Shown here in pieces: positions 21,970-29,804 of a stretch of DNA of 64,000 bases. Numbering within the stretch: position 1 is the first letter of the stretch; every line of letters starts with the position of its first letter. The notes under the pieces were generated by a model. That model saw only the letters and a program-made list of their open reading frames with translations, made no database searches and was not told the DNA's origin. The DNA lies in the NCBI GenBank assembly GCA_965213625.1, contig CBDBZU010000004.1, positions 288,001 through 352,000 of the forward strand, in the 5' to 3' direction. Origin of the DNA: a bacterium. Its GTDB lineage: Bacteria; UBA8248. A program made the translations under genes and the position numbers.

Positions 21970-22578
21970 TTACATCTCGCGGCGGCCCTCTAGCGATCGG
22001 GTAAGCGTCATCTCATCCGCGTATTCGAGATGGCTGCCCATGGGCAAGCCGTGCGCCAACTGGGTGACGCGCACGCCGAGCGGTTTGAGCACCTGGGCGA
22101 GATACAGGGAAGTTCCCTCGCCCGCCATATTGGGATTCAGAGCCAGAATCACCTCATTCACATCTCCCGTCTTTACACGCTCAATGAGCTTGGCGATGGT
22201 GAGGTCCTCGGGCTCCACGCCATCGAGAGGGGAAATGACGCCCATCAGCACGTGATAGCGTCCCTTCACGCCTCCCGCGCGCTCGATGGCGAACACGTCG
22301 GCGGGCTCTTCCACTACGCAAATGACGCTCGCGTCGCGTGCGCCGCACACCGAGCAGTCAATCCCGCCCGCTTCACCCTCCACGAGCATCGAACACGTGC
22401 CGCACAGGCCCACTTTGTCATGCAGCGCCTCGCACGAGGCGGCGATTTTATCGGCGGCTTCGGGGTCCTTGCCCAACAGGTGAAAAACGAATCGCTGCGC
22501 GCTTTTCGGCCCCACTCCTGGAAGACGACGAAACGCTTCGATGCACTCTTCTATGGCGGGAAACCGACTTAGCTGCAT
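21970..22578 (-). CDS. recR: Recombination mediator RecR
   Basis: LPGVGPKSAQR, C4 zinc finger, ICVVEEPAD, YHVLMG.ISPLDG and GLPMGSHLEYADE. Confidence 0.95.
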   Translation of the reverse strand: MQLSRFPAIEECIEAFRRLPGVGPKSAQRFVFHLLGKDPEAADKIAASCEALHDKVGLCGTCSMLVEGEAGGIDCSVCGARDASVICVVEEPADVFAIERAGGVKGRYHVLMGVISPLDGVEPEDLTIAKLIERVKTGDVNEVILALNPNMAGEGTSLYLAQVLKPLGVRVTQLAHGLPMGSHLEYADEMTLTRSLEGRREM

Positions 22579-22669
22579 GGTGTATTCTCAGTTACGTTTC
22601 AGGCCGCGGCCTAAAATGACGAAAAAGACGATATGAAAACGATGCGCGGCGCAGAGGCCGCGCACCGAC

Positions 22670-22987
22670 TCAGAACATACCGGGAATGGGCAGACCACCG
22701 GTGAGTTTCTTCATCTCCTCGGACATCATGTCCTTGCCTTTACGGGACGCCTCGTTGCACGCGGCGCGCACCAGATCCTCGAGCATCTCCACATCATCGG
22801 GGTCGACCACTTGCGGGTCTATTTTCACCGAGATCACGTCGCCCGCGCCGTTGGCGGTCACGCTCACCATGCCGCCGCCGGCGGAGGCCTCCACCGTCTT
22901 CGCCGCCATCTCCTCCTGAAGCTTGGCCATCTTGTCCTGGAGTTGGCGCGCCTGTTTCATTAAACCTCCGATGCCACCTTTTAACAT
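22670..22987 (-). CDS. ybaB: YbaB/EbfC nucleoid-associated protein
   Basis: LMKQA..LQ, ASAGGGMV and DDVEMLEDLV; located between dnaX and recR. Confidence 0.95.
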   Translation of the reverse strand: MLKGGIGGLMKQARQLQDKMAKLQEEMAAKTVEASAGGGMVSVTANGAGDVISVKIDPQVVDPDDVEMLEDLVRAACNEASRKGKDMMSEEMKKLTGGLPIPGMF

Positions 22988-23018
22988 GAGAATCTCCCCG
23001 AGGTATTTCCCTCACCAC

Positions 23019-24749
23019 TCAAGCGAATGAATTTCCACCCGATTTTCGCATCCGCCCGTGGCGAATGTCGACTATCTTTCCGTTGAACAAATCCACGATT
23101 TCCTGAACCACCGCCTCTTCATTCTCATCAAGTTTCTGGCCACGCACATTGCTTGTTTCCCCAGCCCCTTGCCTGGTTTGCGAATGCGCTCCATTTTTCA
23201 CGCCCGCTATCTCGACTTTGGCGCTCCAGGGGGAATGCTCTCGGAAGAATTTTTCGATTTCGGGCAGCACCTCCTCCGCCATGTGCAGACTCTGCGCGTT
23301 CCGGTTCTCCAGCGCGAGAATCACGCGGATGATTCCTTCTGTTTCAAGATCAAGCTCAACGCCATGAAAAAGCGGACGCCTCATCGGGCGCAAGGTCTTC
23401 ACCGCGCCAGTCCATACGCGCCTCGCCTCGACGGTGTTCCACTCCTGCGCTTCCACCTGCGCGACGGGAGAGCCCCCCGAATCAGGTTCAGTCGCAGGCG
23501 GAGCCGAGGCGGGCGCCGTGGTTTTCAGAGGAGCCGGAGGCGCTGCGCCGCCGGCAGGTTCCTCTTTCTGCGATGGGGTAAGGGTGGGAAGTGGAGCCGC
23601 TCCCCCGCCCATGGTCTCGAGCTTCTCCATCAATGCGCCCAAATCCGCTATCGGCTCAATCTGGCACATGCGCAGAATCGCAACCTCGAGCGTCATGCGG
23701 GGGTGATCCGATGTCCTGAGTTCGAACTCCGCTCCCTGCAGAATGGAATACGCTTGATGCGCCTCGGCGAAGCTCATCTTCGCAGCCACCTGATTGCGCT
23801 CTTCGATTTCTGAGGCCGCCACGTCGAAGAGCGCCTCGTTGTCACTGGCCGATAAGAGCACCATGCAGTCGCGCAAATACTCGAGGAGGTTCGCGGAGAA
23901 GAGCTTGAGGTCGTGACCCGCGTCGAAGAGGCTCTTGAGTTCGGTAAGCGCCTTGTTGCCGTCGCGCGCGATCACCGCCTCGACCACTGCTTTGTGGATG
24001 CTGCCCGAGGGCACCCCGAGCACTTTTTCCACTTCCTCGTTCGACACCGGATCCTCGGCGGCGAAAGCGAGCACCTGATCGAGCAAAGACTGCGCATCGC
24101 GAATGCTGCCCTCCCCCATCCGCGCCAACAGCTTGACGGCCGACTCGTCCATCTTCCTGCCCTGCGCCTCGACGATCTTTGAGAGATGCGCCGCGATGAC
24201 CGAGGTCGTGATCCTCCTGAATTCAAACACCTGGCAGCGGCTCAAAATGGTGTCGGGGACGTTCTTGATCTCCGTGGTGGCCAGAATGAATACGACGTGG
24301 GGCGGTGGTTCTTCGAGCGTCTTGAGCAACGCGTTGAAAGAGCTTTTTGAGAGCATGTGCACTTCATCGAATATCACCGTCTTGTAGCGCCCGCGCGCGG
24401 GTTGGTAGCGCAGCCCCTCGCGCAGTTCACGCACGTTGTCCACCCCCGTATAGGTGGCGGCGTCGATTTCCAGAATGTCGGGATGGCTCCCTCTTGTGAT
24501 CTCCTCGCAAGATGAACACTCATTGCAAGGTTCGGGCAGAGACCCATCTTCCGATTCGCAATTGAGCGCCTTTGCAAGAATACGGGCGGTGGTCGTCTTA
24601 CCTACTCCGCGCGTACCGCTGAACAGATATGCGGATGCGACGCGCCCCGAGGCGAGCGCGTTCGTGAGCGTGCGCTGGATGTGCTCCTGGCCGATGAGTT
24701 CCTCGAAACGCTGCGGACGCCATTTCCTGGCGCTGCCGATGAAGGACAT
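23019..24749 (-). CDS. dnaX: DNA polymerase III subunit gamma/tau
   Basis: ARKWRPQRF, GTRGVGKTT, DEVHMLS, NALLKTLEEPP and TILSRCQ. The true start is ATG 24749; the ORF-track extension overlaps ffs. Confidence 0.95.
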   Translation of the reverse strand: MSFIGSARKWRPQRFEELIGQEHIQRTLTNALASGRVASAYLFSGTRGVGKTTTARILAKALNCESEDGSLPEPCNECSSCEEITRGSHPDILEIDAATYTGVDNVRELREGLRYQPARGRYKTVIFDEVHMLSKSSFNALLKTLEEPPPHVVFILATTEIKNVPDTILSRCQVFEFRRITTSVIAAHLSKIVEAQGRKMDESAVKLLARMGEGSIRDAQSLLDQVLAFAAEDPVSNEEVEKVLGVPSGSIHKAVVEAVIARDGNKALTELKSLFDAGHDLKLFSANLLEYLRDCMVLLSASDNEALFDVAASEIEERNQVAAKMSFAEAHQAYSILQGAEFELRTSDHPRMTLEVAILRMCQIEPIADLGALMEKLETMGGGAAPLPTLTPSQKEEPAGGAAPPAPLKTTAPASAPPATEPDSGGSPVAQVEAQEWNTVEARRVWTGAVKTLRPMRRPLFHGVELDLETEGIIRVILALENRNAQSLHMAEEVLPEIEKFFREHSPWSAKVEIAGVKNGAHSQTRQGAGETSNVRGQKLDENEEAVVQEIVDLFNGKIVDIRHGRMRKSGGNSFA

Positions 24750-24825
24750 CAAGAATCCATCCCAAGGATTTACGCCATAAAAGGGCCCCATACCCCATGA
24801 GCGGCGCAGACCCTGCGATGGAGTC

Positions 24826-24930
24826 GACCGGCCAGGCGCCCTCGTGGCACCCGGGAGTATCCACTTACCGCTGCTTCCTTCCGGACCTGACGGGGTTCGC
24901 GGGCTCCCGCCGCACGAGACCCAACCGGCC
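24826..24930 (-). ncRNA. ffs: Signal recognition particle 4.5S RNA
   Basis: The reverse complement contains GAACCCCGTCAGGTCCGGAAGGAAGCAGCGGTAAG within a long hairpin, at the canonical position upstream of dnaX. Confidence 0.9.
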
Positions 24931-25235
24931 GAATCCATCGCAGGCTCTTAATGAAATCCTACCTCGTCCCCCGGCCTTTTGGAAGCGGAAGCATCGCCAT
25001 TTTAATGAGGGCGAACCGCGTGACGGATAACCATCCAAATAACATGGCGTTAGGAGGGCATCTCCTTCAGAAAGGCAACATCCATGAGAGGGAACCAACC
25101 CTTAGAATAAATGCCGACTTGCATCGCCATATAACTCGGAATGGGGTTACAATACACCGGTTCAGCTTCAAACTACTAGAAGCCCTCTCGGTACCGTATT
25201 TTTTTCGGGTCAAACACGGAAAGGCCAACGGACGC

Positions 25236-26099
25236 ATGTCTTACTCGAAAGTCGTCGAACTTACTGAGGGAAAGGTTTACGTCCTCCACAATACATTTCC
25301 TCTGGATGGTCGCATAAGCGCATATCCCATCAGCGCGCGCGGGCACAGCGTCTCAAACTGCTATCTTTTGAAAGATGATTCAGGTGCGGTTCTGCTTGAT
25401 ACCGGCTACGCCACTCACGAGGCCGAAATCCTGGCGCAGCTGGAATCCCTCATCGAACCGGATACGCCCCTGCATCTGCTACCGCTGCGCATCAATGAAT
25501 TCATGTCGGTGGGCAACGCCATGGCGATCGCCAAACGCTTCAACGTGGTGGAGTGCCTCGCCCCCGTGCCGGAAATCAACGAATGGCTCGAGTTCGAAGC
25601 GCTCGAACCTAACGGTGGGAACAACGGCAATCCCATTCTTCCCACCACGATATTGAAACCGCTCCATCCCATCGAAATCGGAGATAGATATATCGAGGTG
25701 ATGATCGCGCCGATTCGCCTCATCAGCACCCGCTGGATTTACGATGCCGCCACACGCACGCTGTTCACCTCGGACTTGTTCAGTCACCTTTGGGCGGATA
25801 GCGCGGAAGGCCCATGGCTGCTGGATGAAGACAAGGTGACGACGACTTCTTTCGTTCGCTCTTTCTTGCTAAACACGCGCTACTGGTGGCTCGAAGGCGC
25901 GAGGACGGACTCCATCCGCAAAGGAATCGCCGAAGTCTTCGAGCGCTATGAGATCGAGACCATCGCTCCGGGCTACGGCGCCATCCTGCGCGGGCGTCAT
26001 CTGGTAGAGCAGCAATTCGCCGTGCTGGATGAGGTTCTGGCGGGTCTCGACCGGAGCGTCGTCAAGCCAGGGTACGTCGCGCTGGGCTTGGAGAGATAG
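25236..26099 (+). CDS. MBL-fold (flavodiiron/ODP-like) protein with a degenerate metal motif
   Basis: NCYLL, VLLDTG, TLFTSDLF and IAPGYG scaffold. The HxExDH-type site is replaced by LRINEFMS. Confidence 0.65.
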   Translation: MSYSKVVELTEGKVYVLHNTFPLDGRISAYPISARGHSVSNCYLLKDDSGAVLLDTGYATHEAEILAQLESLIEPDTPLHLLPLRINEFMSVGNAMAIAKRFNVVECLAPVPEINEWLEFEALEPNGGNNGNPILPTTILKPLHPIEIGDRYIEVMIAPIRLISTRWIYDAATRTLFTSDLFSHLWADSAEGPWLLDEDKVTTTSFVRSFLLNTRYWWLEGARTDSIRKGIAEVFERYEIETIAPGYGAILRGRHLVEQQFAVLDEVLAGLDRSVVKPGYVALGLER

Positions 26100-26107
26100 G
26101 AGCGCGC

Positions 26108-26869
26108 ATGAGTCATCCCCTGCCCCGTGAAGTCTCGCCCGGCGTCTTCTGGCTAGGTGACTGCCTCGTACAGCACTCTCAGGGCAAAATCTATCACTCC
26201 TACAACGCGGCCTTCCTCATTATCGGCTCAGAGGCCTCCATGCTCGTGGAGACGGGACATCCCAAAGATTTCCCCATTATCGAACGACAGATGAGAGATA
26301 TCCTTGCCAAAGGCGGCGGGCCGCTCAAACACCTTTTCCTCACCCATCAGGAAACGCCCCACTCGGGTGGTCTGGGCCGCGTGCTCGACAGATACCCCGA
26401 CCTCACCATCCACGGGGACATGTGCGACTACCATCTCGCATTTCCCGAGCACGAAGGCCGCTTTAAGGAAATGCGCGTGGGAGACGCCATCGACTTAGGC
26501 GATACGAAATTCATGGCCGTGGAGCCGGTGATCAGGGATTTGAGGAGTTCTCTCTGGGGATACGAGACCAAAGGTCGCGTACTGTTTCCCGGAGACGGCT
26601 TCGCCTACAGCCACTACCATACCGATGGTCACTGCGGGATGTTCGCCGAGGAGGCCACCTCTCTCGATCTGGTCGACGTGCTGGGCGTTTTCGCCGAACG
26701 CGCCCTGTTCTGGACCACCTTCACCGACATGAACATCTACGCCGATAAACTCGAAGAGTTGATGGCCGAGTTAAACGTCGAAGTTGTTGCACCGACGCAC
26801 GGCCTCCCCATCCGGGACATAGCGCAAACGATGCCCAAGGTGAGAGAGGGCCTCGTCCAGGGCAATTGA
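26108..26869 (+). CDS. MBL-fold (flavodiiron/ODP-like) metalloprotein
   Basis: YNAAFLI, LVETG, LFLTHQETPHSGG, LFPGDGF and VAPTHG. Confidence 0.75.
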   Translation: MSHPLPREVSPGVFWLGDCLVQHSQGKIYHSYNAAFLIIGSEASMLVETGHPKDFPIIERQMRDILAKGGGPLKHLFLTHQETPHSGGLGRVLDRYPDLTIHGDMCDYHLAFPEHEGRFKEMRVGDAIDLGDTKFMAVEPVIRDLRSSLWGYETKGRVLFPGDGFAYSHYHTDGHCGMFAEEATSLDLVDVLGVFAERALFWTTFTDMNIYADKLEELMAELNVEVVAPTHGLPIRDIAQTMPKVREGLVQGN

Positions 26870-27498: not shown

Positions 27499-28059
27499 AT
27501 GACAGATCCCATCGACGGACACAGCACCTCCACCGTGCCGGGCGAGCGCGTCATCGACAAGCCGGAACTCCCCAAAGGTGGACTGTATACGGACAATACC
27601 GTCCACACCGAGATGCACGAAGGCTCCCTCCAGCTCAAACGCGGTACGGCGGGCGATTTCGAGATTTTCTGCGACGAGGGCGCGCACATCGGCGGTTCGG
27701 CCCAATACCCCACGCCTATGGCTTATCTCGCCATGGCGACAGGCTTCTGACTGCTTACCCAGGTGTCGCGGTACGCGCACATGATGAAAATGGAAATCAA
27801 GGGGGCGAGCGTCTCGGTCCGGTTCCGCAAGCTGCTGGGCGGCTCCGTGCTCAAGGGCACAGTCTTCAACAAGTGGGAGGCCGTGGACACGCACTTGAAA
27901 GTCGAATCGGACGAGCCTGCCGAGAAACTCGCGCATCTCATCAAGAACGCCAAGAACGGCTGCTTCGCCGAGGCCCTCATAACCGAGCCCGTGCCGCTCA
28001 ACTCCACCGTGGAGGTGAACGGCGAACCCTTCAATATAGAGGGCGTGACGGCGGATTAA
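27499..28059 (+). CDS. OsmC-like peroxiredoxin, predicted selenoprotein (UGA at 27748-27750 read as Sec84)
   Basis: ORFs 27499-27750 and 27763-28059 are in the same frame. Read-through gives DEGAHIGG...PTPMAYLAMATGF-U-LLTQ...KNGCFAE, with U at the OsmC peroxidatic Cys position. SECIS-like hairpin at 27763-27780. Confidence 0.8.
27763..27780 (+). promoter_or_regulatory. Putative bacterial SECIS element
   Basis: GUG-(bulged U)-CGCG-[GUA]-CGCG-CAC starts 12 nt after the UGA. The bulged U and apical GU resemble the E. coli fdhF SECIS layout. Confidence 0.65.
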
Positions 28060-28082
28060 CACCCATATATGGAGTTTTTGGT

Positions 28083-28535
28083 ATGGAATATTTCAACGCA
28101 TCAGACGACGTCGCCTTCGGCTCACAGCCTGAGCCCGCCGACCTTGAATCCCTCGCGGCCAGAGGTGTGAAGACCATCATCAACACGCGTTTTCCCGAAG
28201 AAGACCAGGGCGATCTCCCGCCCGATCGCGCCAAAACCGAGGCGGAAGCGCTGGGAATGCGCTACATGAACATCCCCGTCTCGCCGGTCGAGTTCAGCCC
28301 CGCTTCGCTGGCCGAGGTAAGCCGCGCGCTCTCGGAAGCCAAGGCCCACGGGCCTGCGTTCGTACACTGAAAGGCCACTGGGCGAGCCGGGATTTGCTCG
28401 CTGAACCATCTGGCTGATGAGAACGACTGGTCGGCGGGGGATATGGAAGCCGCCGCCGACGCCACAGGCTTCGACTGGCGCGAGGCGCCGCTCGCGCCCA
28501 AGTACCGTGAGTTCTTCGCGCAGAGGCCCGGGTAG
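28083..28535 (+). CDS. DUF442/TIGR01244-like sulfurtransferase (PTP/rhodanese-like fold), predicted selenoprotein (UGA at 28368-28370 read as Sec96)
   Basis: GSQPEPADLESLAARGVKTIINTRFPEE...GMRYMNIPV...PAFVH-U-KATGRA matches the HCxxxxR active loop. The frame stays open for 54 more codons to TAG 28533-28535. Confidence 0.8.
28381..28402 (+). promoter_or_regulatory. Putative bacterial SECIS element
   Basis: GGCGAGC-[CGGGAUUU]-GCUCGCU hairpin starting 10 nt after the UGA, with a G-containing apical loop. Confidence 0.55.
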
Positions 28536-28961: not shown

Positions 28962-29804
28962 GTGTGTGCCAGGCTAACTGGTGCCAGTGCAGCCGGTGAA
29001 AGTCCGGCAGGAAGGAGAAGGTGAACCGCCACCTCCACCCCGAGTCATGGGCCGCCACTCGCGAGGGTGGGAGTCAAGCGTTGACAGGGGCGCGGGCGGG
29101 GCTATTGAGCATCGAAAGAATTATTGTCCGGGATGTCGAGGTTTTCCCCTCAGCCGAAGACAGCATCCGACCCGCCGATACGGCGAGGCGGGCCGGAATC
29201 CCGCGGTGTCAAAGAACCCACGCACGTACGTACGTACTTCACCGGGACCTGGGAGGTTTCCATGCCATCCCGCCGTAGTGGCGGGGCCGCAGAGGGAAGG
29301 AGGAATCCGTAGTCGATGATGAACGGCATGGAGAAGTCAGACTCAGGGCTAGTAGCCGAGAAGCCGACGAACAAGGGGACGCGAGTTCTGGCGGAGGCGG
29401 TGGAGCGAAGGGCCGGGCCCGAGGGGAATCCGGGAAGCCAAAGCACGCGCCGGACACAGGGCCGGGAAAGCGTGTCACAAGCGGTCGACCGGATACGGCA
29501 ATTCGTTGTACAGGAGCCACGGAGCGTCTGACGACGCTTCTCCACCACGTGACTCCCGATGCGCTGCGCAGGGCGTTCCTCGAGTTAAAGAGGGATGCTA
29601 CGGCATGCGCGGACGGAGTGACGTGGCGGATGTACGCGGAAGGGCTGGAAGGCCGACTGGCCGACCTGCACGAGCGCGTGCACTCGGAAGCTTACCGGGC
29701 GACGCCGTCACGGCGGGTGAACATCTCCAAGCCCGACGGCGGGACACGACCGCTCGGCGTCGCAGCCATCGAGGACAAGATAGTCCAGAAGGCCGTGACG
29801 GAGC
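28962..29804 (+). mobile_element. ltrA: Truncated group II intron (5' ribozyme domains plus the N-terminal part of the RT/maturase, frameshifted)
   Basis: GTGTG 5' end, GGTGAAAGTCC domain I motif, then MEKSDSGLVAEKPTNK...ERRAGPEGN...QAVDRIRQ / ERLTTLLHHVT...DGVTW..Y / YRATPSRRVNISKPDGGTRPLGVAAIEDKIVQKAV. Frameshift near 29520; no YADD and no domain V/VI. Confidence 0.85.

What the first reader, a model, noticed from the sequence alone, without database searches (positions are those of the whole stretch)
27499..28535. Hidden tandem selenoprotein operon: Sec-OsmC plus Sec-DUF442-like sulfurtransferase
Seen in the sequence: two adjacent co-oriented genes, 23 bp apart, each broken by a single in-frame TGA (27748 and 28368). 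The frame stays open and homologous after each TGA, and each is followed 10-12 nt later by a hairpin. Established knowledge: the first TGA falls where OsmC/Ohr proteins have the peroxidatic Cys (with the second Cys kept in NGCF), and the second falls at the HCxxxxR catalytic Cys of DUF442/Blh-type sulfurtransferases. Bacterial SECIS elements lie immediately 3' of the UGA. Two independent nonsense mutations both landing on catalytic Cys codons, both as TGA, is unlikely. Inference: a coupled selenium-based peroxide/persulfide (or Se-transfer) redox module that standard gene callers would truncate. I do not know of this pairing being described.
Basis: partly seen in the sequence, partly recalled or inferred. 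Interest (0 to 1): 0.9.

Follow-up and report, generated by a model that had tools for sequence, protein, structure and literature searches.

The report
Two adjacent selenoprotein genes, one uncatalogued
Two neighbouring genes in an uncultured marine-type bacterium each use a stop codon to insert selenocysteine at the catalytic site; one belongs to a known selenoprotein family, and the other is a sulfur-transferase-like protein that did not appear in the selenoprotein catalogues I could read.

Summary
Gene 1 (27499-28059) and gene 2 (28083-28535) are 23 nt apart, and each has one in-frame TGA (27748, 28368).

Both are genuine selenocysteine codons:
- The genome carries selA, selB, selD and tRNA-Sec.
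- TGA is otherwise its commonest stop codon.
- The TGAs are conserved in dozens of related genomes, with full conservation downstream.
- Cys-containing homologs have Cys opposite each U.
- Each TGA is followed by a hairpin under RNA-level selection.

Gene 1 is not new. It scores 166.7 bits against NCBIfam NF041052, "OsmC-related (seleno)protein" (cut-off 95). That family is multi-copy in this phylum.

Gene 2 is a DUF442/PTP-fold protein with Sec at the H-C-x4-R nucleophile. Public databases hold it only as a truncated 95-aa "sulfur transferase domain" protein. No NCBIfam selenoprotein model matched it. It is absent from the 119-family table of a 2026 review. I read it as a new selenoprotein family of a familiar kind.

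The "coupled operon" idea is only partly supported. Close adjacency holds within one genus. In sister genera, and for a second paralog in this genome, the Sec-DUF442 gene sits beside ilvD with no OsmC gene found nearby.

The parts
27499..28059 (+). Gene 1: OsmC-related selenoprotein, 186 aa, U84 in GF-U-LLT (UxxT motif), second Cys155 in NGCF
   Evidence: NCBIfam NF041052 at 166.7 bits against a cut-off of 95. Pfam OsmC at 49.5 bits. U84 and C155 align to the Cys residues of PDB 3cje and 2onf.
27748..27750 (+). TGA read as Sec84 of gene 1
   Evidence: The TGA is conserved in all 150 listed family matches in the phylum.
27763..27780 (+). bSECIS-like hairpin of gene 1: stem around CGCG / CGCG, apical loop GUA
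   Evidence: Fold. On 25 family members, 94.7% of cells are paired, 3 of 6 pairs show compensatory changes, and 14 cells are changed on both sides against 2.7 in shuffles (0 of 500 shuffles reach it).
28060..28082 (+). 23-nt spacer with GGAG (28071-28074) before the gene-2 ATG
   Evidence: The spacer is 22-25 nt with conserved GGAGTT in 14 orthologous loci.
28083..28535 (+). Gene 2: DUF442/PTP-fold sulfurtransferase-like selenoprotein, 150 aa, U96 in VH-U-KATG-R (C-x4-R loop)
   Evidence: Pfam PF04273 at 45.7 bits against a cut-off of 26.1. AlphaFold2 model with pLDDT 95.3. Foldseek top hits are the DUF442 structures 3gxg and 2f46. H95, C96 and R101 are invariant in 32 sequences.
28368..28370 (+). 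TGA read as Sec96 of gene 2
   Evidence: The codon is TGA in 35 of 35 distinct genes and in 3 further genes.
28382..28401 (+). bSECIS-like hairpin of gene 2: stem GCGAGC / GCUCGC, 8-nt loop CGGGAUUU
   Evidence: Fold. Codons 100, 102, 103, 105 and 106 each use a single codon in 35 of 35 genes. Arg101 uses only CGA or CGG, which gives A-U or G-U with the partner base. Other invariant Gly codons use 3-4 different codons.

Best explanation
These are two genuine selenoprotein genes in a selenoprotein-rich, Nitrospinota-labelled uncultured bacterium.

Shown here:
- UGA-84 of gene 1 and UGA-96 of gene 2 sit in contexts typical of SelB-dependent recoding. Each is followed by a conserved hairpin, and the genome has selA, selB, selD and tRNA-Sec.
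- Gene 1 is a member of the curated OsmC-related selenoprotein family.
- Gene 2 is a Sec form of the DUF442 (BLH_phosphatase, PTP-fold) domain, with Sec in place of the loop nucleophile.

Inferred:
- In gene 1, Sec84 attacks a hydroperoxide to give a selenenic acid. Cys155 resolves this to a selenenylsulfide, and a thiol reductant regenerates the enzyme. This is the OsmC/Ohr scheme with Se at the peroxidatic position.
- In gene 2, Sec96 lies at the N-terminus of helix 100-114, with Arg101 positioned to hold an anionic substrate. It accepts sulfane sulfur from thiosulfate, persulfide or polysulfide as a Se-S adduct and passes it to a thiol acceptor, as the Cys of characterised DUF442 domains does. 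Cys105 is conserved in the Sec forms and could form a protective or resolving Se-S bond.

The tight two-gene arrangement is a genus-level acquisition, not an ancient module. A functional link between the two genes is possible but unproven.
For: Sec machinery in the own genome: selD 333.5 bits (itself with one in-frame TGA), selA 564.4 bits, selB 388.1 bits, tRNA-Sec 75.9 bits, all over their cut-offs.

TGA is a normal stop here. It ends 26 of 53 ORFs of 250 aa or more in the window, including dnaX, ybaB and the PPIase gene.

Gene 2:
- 32 of 61 genomes searched have a match, including 22 of 22 relatives in the same genus. 52 of 56 rows carry exactly one TGA, with identity down to 39% over residues 1-148.
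- Two paralogs per genome both keep the TGA.
- 30 of 30 Cys homologs have H-C-x4-R opposite U96.
- Synonymous sites in the hairpin are frozen in 35 of 35 genes, and the same hairpin is present in 3 more.
- Fold: pLDDT 95.3, with DUF442 crystal structures as the top matches.
- Close Cys homologs are fused to rhodanese, to MBL plus rhodanese, and to AhpC/Redoxin domains.
- DUF442 domains have measured sulfurtransferase activity that depends on the loop Cys (PMC5823870 and PMC9163753, passages read).

Gene 1:
- NF041052 at 166.7 bits against a cut-off of 95.
- Cys alignment to 3cje and 2onf.
- Compensatory changes in the hairpin.

Independent Logan assemblies of 4 runs, at depth 60-105, read the same letters. 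They come from one study and may be the source sample.
Against: - There is no protein-level evidence of selenium incorporation.
- The gene-2 stem shows no compensatory double changes, only A-U to G-U, so its RNA structure rests on frozen synonymous sites and not on covariation.
- Single-sequence folds are not exceptional against shuffles: z = -0.51 for gene 1 and -1.14 for gene 2.
- Gene 2 scores below the TIGR01244 sulfurtransferase cut-off (46.2 against 85.85). Its paralog scores slightly higher on a PTP model (PTP-NADK 36.6) than on BLH_phosphatase (33.5). A phosphatase or reductase chemistry is therefore not excluded.
- The neighbourhoods give no sulfur-metabolism hint. Here the neighbours are a glyoxalase-like gene and ODP/MBL-like genes. 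At the other site they are ilvD and a transglutaminase-like gene.
Confidence: 0.8

Rival explanations
1. The two proteins form an obligate selenium-based redox relay. The Sec-DUF442 would be the dedicated partner of this OsmC-Se copy, either as its reductant or as a persulfide or perselenide donor or acceptor, and the pair would be co-transcribed.
For: The spacer is 22-25 nt with a conserved GGAG in 14 orthologous loci. The genes are adjacent in 21 of 23 genomes of the genus. Cys homologs of gene 2 are fused to AhpC-TSA/Redoxin domains (P0081, P0127), which links this domain to thiol peroxidase-type proteins.
Against: No OsmC gene was found in the fetched flanks of 10 loci from six other genera, nor of the 6 paralog-2 loci. 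There the gene lies between ilvD and a transglutaminase-like gene. Within the genus the spacer is 59, 73, 205 and 697 nt in four species and 6.9 kb in a fifth. OsmC-Se has several other copies per genome that have no DUF442 partner.
Confidence: 0.2
2. Gene 2 is a phosphatase or a reductase, not a sulfurtransferase. It would be a PTP-fold enzyme whose Sec nucleophile attacks a phosphate or arsenate-type ester, or that cycles through a Sec96-Cys105 selenenylsulfide.
For: The PTP/DSP fold, with many phosphatases among the Foldseek and profile hits. Paralog 2 scores best on the PTP-NADK model. Cys105 is kept in 35 of 35 Sec forms but varies among the Cys homologs.
Against: The loop is C-x4-R, as in the DUF442 structures 2f46 and 3gxg. 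The classical C-x5-R is seen in TpbA in the same profile alignments. The characterised DUF442 domains are sulfurtransferases. The fusions are to rhodanese and persulfide-dioxygenase-type MBL domains. The Cys105 codon lies in the SECIS stem, so its invariance may reflect the RNA and not the protein.
Confidence: 0.15
3. The TGAs are true stops. The genes would be truncated or decaying, or the TGAs would be assembly errors.
For: Gene callers truncate gene 2 at 95 aa in 39 of 41 database homologs.
Against: The TGA and the downstream frame are conserved down to 39% identity in two paralogs and several genera. Cys stands opposite U in the homologs. A complete Sec machinery is present. The hairpins are under selection. 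Other assemblies read identical letters.
Confidence: 0.02

Closest known systems
OsmC-related (seleno)protein, NCBIfam NF041052. This is the 'OsmC-like protein, UxxT' entry of the prokaryotic selenoprotein catalogues, first reported from Sargasso Sea metagenomes.
   Same: Gene 1 scores well over the family cut-off. It has the U-x-x-T motif, the second Cys, and a hairpin after the UGA.
   Different: Nothing essential differs. It is one of three TGA-bearing copies in this genome, and it is the copy that acquired a DUF442 neighbour in this genus.
DUF442 / BLH_phosphatase (PF04273) sulfurtransferase domains: the Blh N-terminal domain of Xylella and Agrobacterium, the DUF442 of Cupriavidus SQR, and the structures 2f46 and 3gxg.
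   Same: The same fold and the same C-x4-R loop after a beta strand, in a stand-alone size of about 150 aa. The active-site residue lies at a similar position: Cys94 in the SQR DUF442 and U96 here.
   Different: The nucleophile is Sec, not Cys. The protein scores below the TIGR01244 cut-off and has no fused dioxygenase or SQR. There are no sqr or pdo neighbours among the genes I annotated.
Rhodanese-like selenoproteins, forms 1-5 in Table 1 of PMC13188914.
   Same: Sec replaces the catalytic Cys of an anion-binding loop in a small sulfurtransferase-type protein.
   Different: The fold and the Pfam family differ: PF00581 rhodanese there, PF04273 PTP-fold here. No rhodanese model matched gene 2.

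Membership tests
NF041052 OsmC-related (seleno)protein (gene 1) | HMM score over the curated cut-off | tested here: met
   166.7 bits against a cut-off of 95, covering model positions 3-144 of 144.
NF041052 OsmC-related (seleno)protein (gene 1) | In-frame UGA at the first conserved Cys (UxxT), with the second Cys retained | tested here: met
   U84 lies in GF-U-LLT and C155 in NGCF. Both align to Cys residues in 3cje and 2onf. Both columns are invariant in 16 family members.
NF041052 OsmC-related (seleno)protein (gene 1) | bSECIS hairpin 3' of the UGA | tested here: met
   A 6-bp stem with GUA loop. 3 of 6 pairs show compensatory changes, and 0 of 500 shuffles reach the observed covariation.
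PF04273 BLH_phosphatase / DUF442 (gene 2) | HMM score over the Pfam gathering threshold | tested here: met
   45.7 bits against 26.1. Paralog 2 scores 33.5 bits.
PF04273 BLH_phosphatase / DUF442 (gene 2) | PTP-like fold with a C-x4-R loop between a beta strand and a helix | tested here: met
   The loop is H-U-K-A-T-G-R. H, C/U and R are invariant in 32 sequences. The model has strand 92-96 and helix 100-114. The best structural matches are 3gxg and 2f46.
PF04273 BLH_phosphatase / DUF442 (gene 2) | Sulfurtransferase activity dependent on the loop nucleophile | not testable with these tools
   Known only for the Blh and SQR DUF442 domains.
TIGR01244 family sulfur transferase | Score over the curated cut-off | tested here: not met
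   46.2 bits against 85.85.
NF040641 bifunctional sulfur transferase/dioxygenase Blh | Full-length match including the ETHE1-type dioxygenase domain | tested here: not met
   53.6 bits against 625. Only model positions 3-130 of 423 are matched.
Classical PTP/DSP phosphatases | C-x5-R signature | tested here: not met
   Four residues, not five, lie between U96 and R101. That C-x5-R defines the classical family is recalled knowledge. It is seen here in the TpbA alignment.
Bacterial selenoprotein (both genes) | selA, selB, selD and tRNA-Sec in the genome | tested here: met
   All four are over their cut-offs.
Bacterial selenoprotein (both genes) | Selenium in the protein | not testable with these tools
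   This needs 75Se labelling or mass spectrometry.

The most novel reading that the evidence does not exclude
Sec-DUF442 would be the first natural selenoenzyme with a protein-tyrosine-phosphatase fold. It would be a lineage-specific, duplicated family in which Sec96 and Cys105 form a selenenylsulfide redox couple. In one genus it would have been recruited next to an OsmC selenoprotein to form a two-selenoprotein relay, either handling peroxide and persulfide stress or trafficking selenium itself towards SelD.
Probability: 0.15. Interest if true: 0.65.

Novelty: new member of a known kind. Interest (0 to 1): 0.45.

Why it matters
Gene 2 would add a fold class (PTP-like DUF442) to the list of bacterial selenoproteins. 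Every public copy I saw is mis-annotated as a 95-aa fragment, so selenoproteome counts for this lineage, and any functional reading of these genes, are incomplete.

A Sec nucleophile in a sulfurtransferase loop is also a natural experiment on why Se replaces S in sulfane-sulfur chemistry.

For annotation, the very conserved hairpin GGGCGRGCCGGG-N4-GCUCGC gives a simple signature for finding the family. Gene 1 and the presence of Sec machinery are ordinary for this selenoprotein-rich lineage.

Tried and rejected
- Global reassignment of TGA (code 4 or 25) is rejected. TGA ends 26 of 53 long ORFs in the window.
- A sequencing error is rejected by cross-species conservation and by identical Logan contigs. 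Those contigs come from one study and may be the source sample.
- RNA evidence for expression or co-transcription: no RNA holder was listed.
- A sequence-only PDB search with P0002 found nothing at E <= 0.01. The profile search did find relatives.
- Rfam at gathering thresholds reports no SECIS family in the window. I do not count this as evidence, because these hairpins are gene-specific.
- The consensus scan found no promoter, and no terminator between or directly after the two genes.
- Conserved functional neighbours of Sec-DUF442: the ancestral site is flanked by ilvD, a transglutaminase-like gene, an acetolactate-synthase-like TPP enzyme and squalene/hopanoid-type genes. I see no functional link there.
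- The upstream MBL-fold genes are ODP/flavodiiron-like, not persulfide dioxygenase. They are separated from the pair by a gene on the opposite strand.
- L059, a Clostridia MAG hit, is an ordinary Cys C-x5-R phosphatase.
- Literature. 'DUF442' + 'selenoprotein' returned 0 papers. 'selenocysteine' + 'TIGR01244' returned 0 papers. In a four-term search, none of the 15 papers listed out of 883 held PF04273 or DUF442. Table 1 of PMC13188914 was read in full. The BSepDB paper PMC13326102 was read as passages only. Haft & Tolstoy 2025 (PMC12013261) is not held, and supplements are closed. The family could therefore be listed in material I could not see.
- Three of the 20 extra OsmC loci (L092-L094) were missed by my first motif script and recovered. 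Seven OsmC loci gave no start codon and were left out of alignment A3.
- The spacer could not be measured in L036-L038, because the script read through a TGA stop.

Full report
**What is there.** The window is G000:C4:288001-352000 of a 4.15-Mb, 4-contig genome. Near-identical relatives bear titles such as 'Nitrospinota bacterium' and 'uncultured Nitrospinaceae bacterium' MAGs. ORF1 runs 27499-28059 (+) with a single in-frame TGA at 27748-27750. ORF2 runs 28083-28535 (+) with a single in-frame TGA at 28368-28370. The spacer is 23 nt and carries a GGAG. Read through, ORF1 matches Pfam OsmC (49.5 bits, residues 66-168) and ORF2 matches BLH_phosphatase/DUF442 (45.7 bits against a cut-off of 26.1, residues 8-102). 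Both matches span the TGA.

**Are the TGAs selenocysteine codons?**
- The genome encodes selD (333.5 bits, itself with one in-frame TGA), selA (564.4 bits), selB (388.1 bits) and tRNA-Sec (75.9 bits), all over their cut-offs.
- TGA is not reassigned. It ends 26 of 53 ORFs of 250 aa or more in the window, including dnaX, ybaB and the PPIase gene. The two genes in question end in TAA and TAG.
- Logan contigs of four runs, at depth 60-105, read the stretch without a single difference. They come from one study and may be the source sample.

**Gene 1 is a known selenoprotein.**
- It scores 166.7 bits on NCBIfam NF041052, 'OsmC-related (seleno)protein' (cut-off 95). 'OsmC-like protein, PF02566, UxxT' is listed in Table 1 of the 2026 review PMC13188914. 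The local motif is U-L-L-T.
- U84 and C155 align with the two Cys of the solved OsmC-like proteins 3cje and 2onf. Both are invariant in 16 family members.
- The family is multi-copy in this phylum. 48 of 51 genomes have a match over the cut-off. All 150 listed matches carry one TGA, and 193 further matches were not listed. This genome has three TGA-bearing copies.
- On 25 family members, the hairpin after the TGA (6-bp stem, GUA loop) has 94.7% of cells paired. Three of its six pairs show compensatory changes, such as C-G / A-U / G-C at one pair, where an amino-acid-changing base covaries with an Ala wobble base. There are 14 both-side changes against 2.7 in shuffles, and 0 of 500 shuffles reach the observed value.
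- In the window's own copy, the outer part of the stem pairs in a register shifted by a bulged U.

**Gene 2 is a Sec form of DUF442.**
- *Distribution.* A six-frame search of 61 genomes found matches in 32. These include 22 of 22 relatives in the same genus and 31 of 36 in the same family. None of the 24 genomes outside that family matched. Of 56 match rows, 52 carry exactly one TGA and one carries two. The other three are a contig-end fragment and two weak partial hits.
- *Paralogs.* Identity falls to 39% while the match still covers residues 1-148, so the frame is conserved through and beyond the TGA. Each genome of the genus has two paralogs. The second in G000 lies at C4:3626688-3627128, at about 42% identity.
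- *Cys homologs.* In an alignment with 30 Cys-containing homologs from a 1.8-billion-protein library, H95, C96 and R101 are invariant. That library search gave 1414 hits at E <= 0.001. U96 therefore stands opposite the Cys of H-C-x4-R.
- *RNA-level constraint.* In 35 distinct Sec-DUF442 genes, codons 100 (Gly), 102 (Ala), 103 (Gly), 105 (Cys) and 106 (Ser) each use one codon in 35 of 35. Arg101 uses only CGA or CGG, which pair as A-U or G-U with the partner base. Other invariant Gly codons (13, 28, 58, 90) use 3-4 different codons. Three more genes found with a looser pattern carry the same hairpin. The frozen bases form the stem GCGAGC/GCUCGC, with an 8-nt G-rich loop, starting 11 nt after the UGA. 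Because the stem never varies, covariation cannot be scored. The argument rests on synonymous-site invariance.
- *Fold.* The AlphaFold2 model is confident (pLDDT 95.3, pTM 0.90). U96 lies at the end of strand 92-96, before helix 100-114. The best structural matches are the DUF442 structures 3gxg and 2f46, followed by PTP/DSP phosphatases. A profile search gives the same order.

**Is it catalogued?**
- Public protein databases hold the gene as a 95-aa fragment in 39 of 41 homologs. The only name given is 'sulfur transferase domain-containing protein'. Several library representatives end exactly at '...VH'.
- NCBIfam release 20.0 gives only two sub-threshold hits, Blh and TIGR01244, and no selenoprotein model.
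- The 119-entry table of PMC13188914 has no PF04273, TIGR01244 or phosphatase-fold entry.
- Text searches for DUF442 with selenoprotein, and for TIGR01244 with selenocysteine, found nothing.
- BSepDB (PMC13326102, passages only) lists Nitrospinota-labelled MAGs among the richest selenoproteomes, at 48-54 genes. A large selenoproteome in this lineage is therefore already known.
- I could not read supplements or Haft & Tolstoy 2025. 'Not described' is provisional.

**Function.**
- DUF442 domains of Blh and of a Cupriavidus SQR are experimentally sulfurtransferases that depend on the loop Cys (PMC5823870 and PMC9163753, passages read).
- The loop here is C-x4-R, as in 2f46 and 3gxg. It is not the C-x5-R seen in TpbA.
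- Close Cys homologs are fused to two rhodanese domains (P0048), to MBL plus rhodanese (P0049), to AhpC/Redoxin (P0081, P0127) and to YHS (P0094).
- I therefore favour sulfane-sulfur (or selenium) transfer through a Se-S adduct on Sec96. A phosphatase or reductase chemistry is a minority alternative.
- Cys105 is invariant in the Sec forms but lies in the SECIS stem, so its meaning is ambiguous.

**Is it a coupled operon?**
- The two genes are less than 0.7 kb apart in 21 of 23 genomes of the genus (G000 plus 22 relatives). The spacer is 22-25 nt in 14 loci, unmeasured in 3, and 59, 73, 205 and 697 nt in four others.
- In G015 the genes are about 6.9 kb apart. In G017 the gene lies at a contig end, so adjacency cannot be determined.
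- None of 10 loci from six other genera, and none of the 6 paralog-2 loci, has an OsmC gene in the fetched flanks. The flanks reach up to 4 kb, and some contigs are shorter. There the gene sits between ilvD and a transglutaminase-like gene, which looks like the ancestral site.
- The pairing is thus a genus-level event. The AhpC/Redoxin-DUF442 fusions are the only independent hint of a peroxidase link.

**Verdict.** Both genes are real selenoprotein genes. Gene 1 is already known. Gene 2 is, as far as I could check, an uncatalogued selenoprotein family of a familiar kind. The coupled-module reading is weakly supported.

Noticed in passing
window 28999-29218 (+): A group II intron D1-D4 RNA (Rfam RF02005, 163.7 bits against 49) lies about 460 nt downstream of gene 2. 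I found no recognisable reverse-transcriptase ORF after it. Eight ORFs tested between 29316 and 33781 have no Pfam match.
   Followed up: partly
G000:C4:3626688-3627128 (-), = L078:9977-10441: A second Sec-DUF442 paralog, about 42% identical, has the same TGA and the same hairpin. It lies between ilvD and a transglutaminase-like gene, near TPP-enzyme and squalene/hopanoid-type genes. This is the position occupied by the gene in sister genera, although those copies are more similar to the window's copy, at 50-65% identity.
   Followed up: partly
G000:C4:3821953-3822381 (-) and C4:1340336-1340737 (-): Two further OsmC-related selenoprotein genes with in-frame TGA lie in the same genome. One search reports up to 17 matches to this family in one related genome (G035), of which I saw 9 listed, all over the cut-off with one TGA. 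This suggests a marked paralog expansion in the phylum.
   Followed up: partly
G000:C4:1518852-1519814 (+), L001: The selD gene of this genome itself contains one in-frame TGA, so it is a Sec-type SelD.
   Followed up: no
window 24951-26869 (+): Two tandem metallo-beta-lactamase-fold genes lie upstream. The second resembles the diiron ODP/flavorubredoxin N-terminal domain without a flavodoxin part. Both score below the family cut-offs.
   Followed up: no
window 21970-24938 (-): An SRP RNA (24827-24926) overlaps the 5' end of the dnaX ORF as called, and is followed by ybaB and recR on the minus strand. This looks like a typical housekeeping cluster.
   Followed up: no
proteins P0048, P0049, P0081, P0127, P0094 (metagenome homologs): Cys-type relatives of gene 2 occur fused to rhodanese, to MBL plus rhodanese, to AhpC/Redoxin and to YHS domains.
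   Followed up: partly
L042 and L043 spacers (genomes G001, G007): In two species of the genus, the OsmC-DUF442 spacer is 59-73 nt. By my reading of the printed sequence it contains a GC-rich inverted repeat followed by T runs, which suggests separate transcription there. No terminator scan was run on these loci.
   Followed up: no
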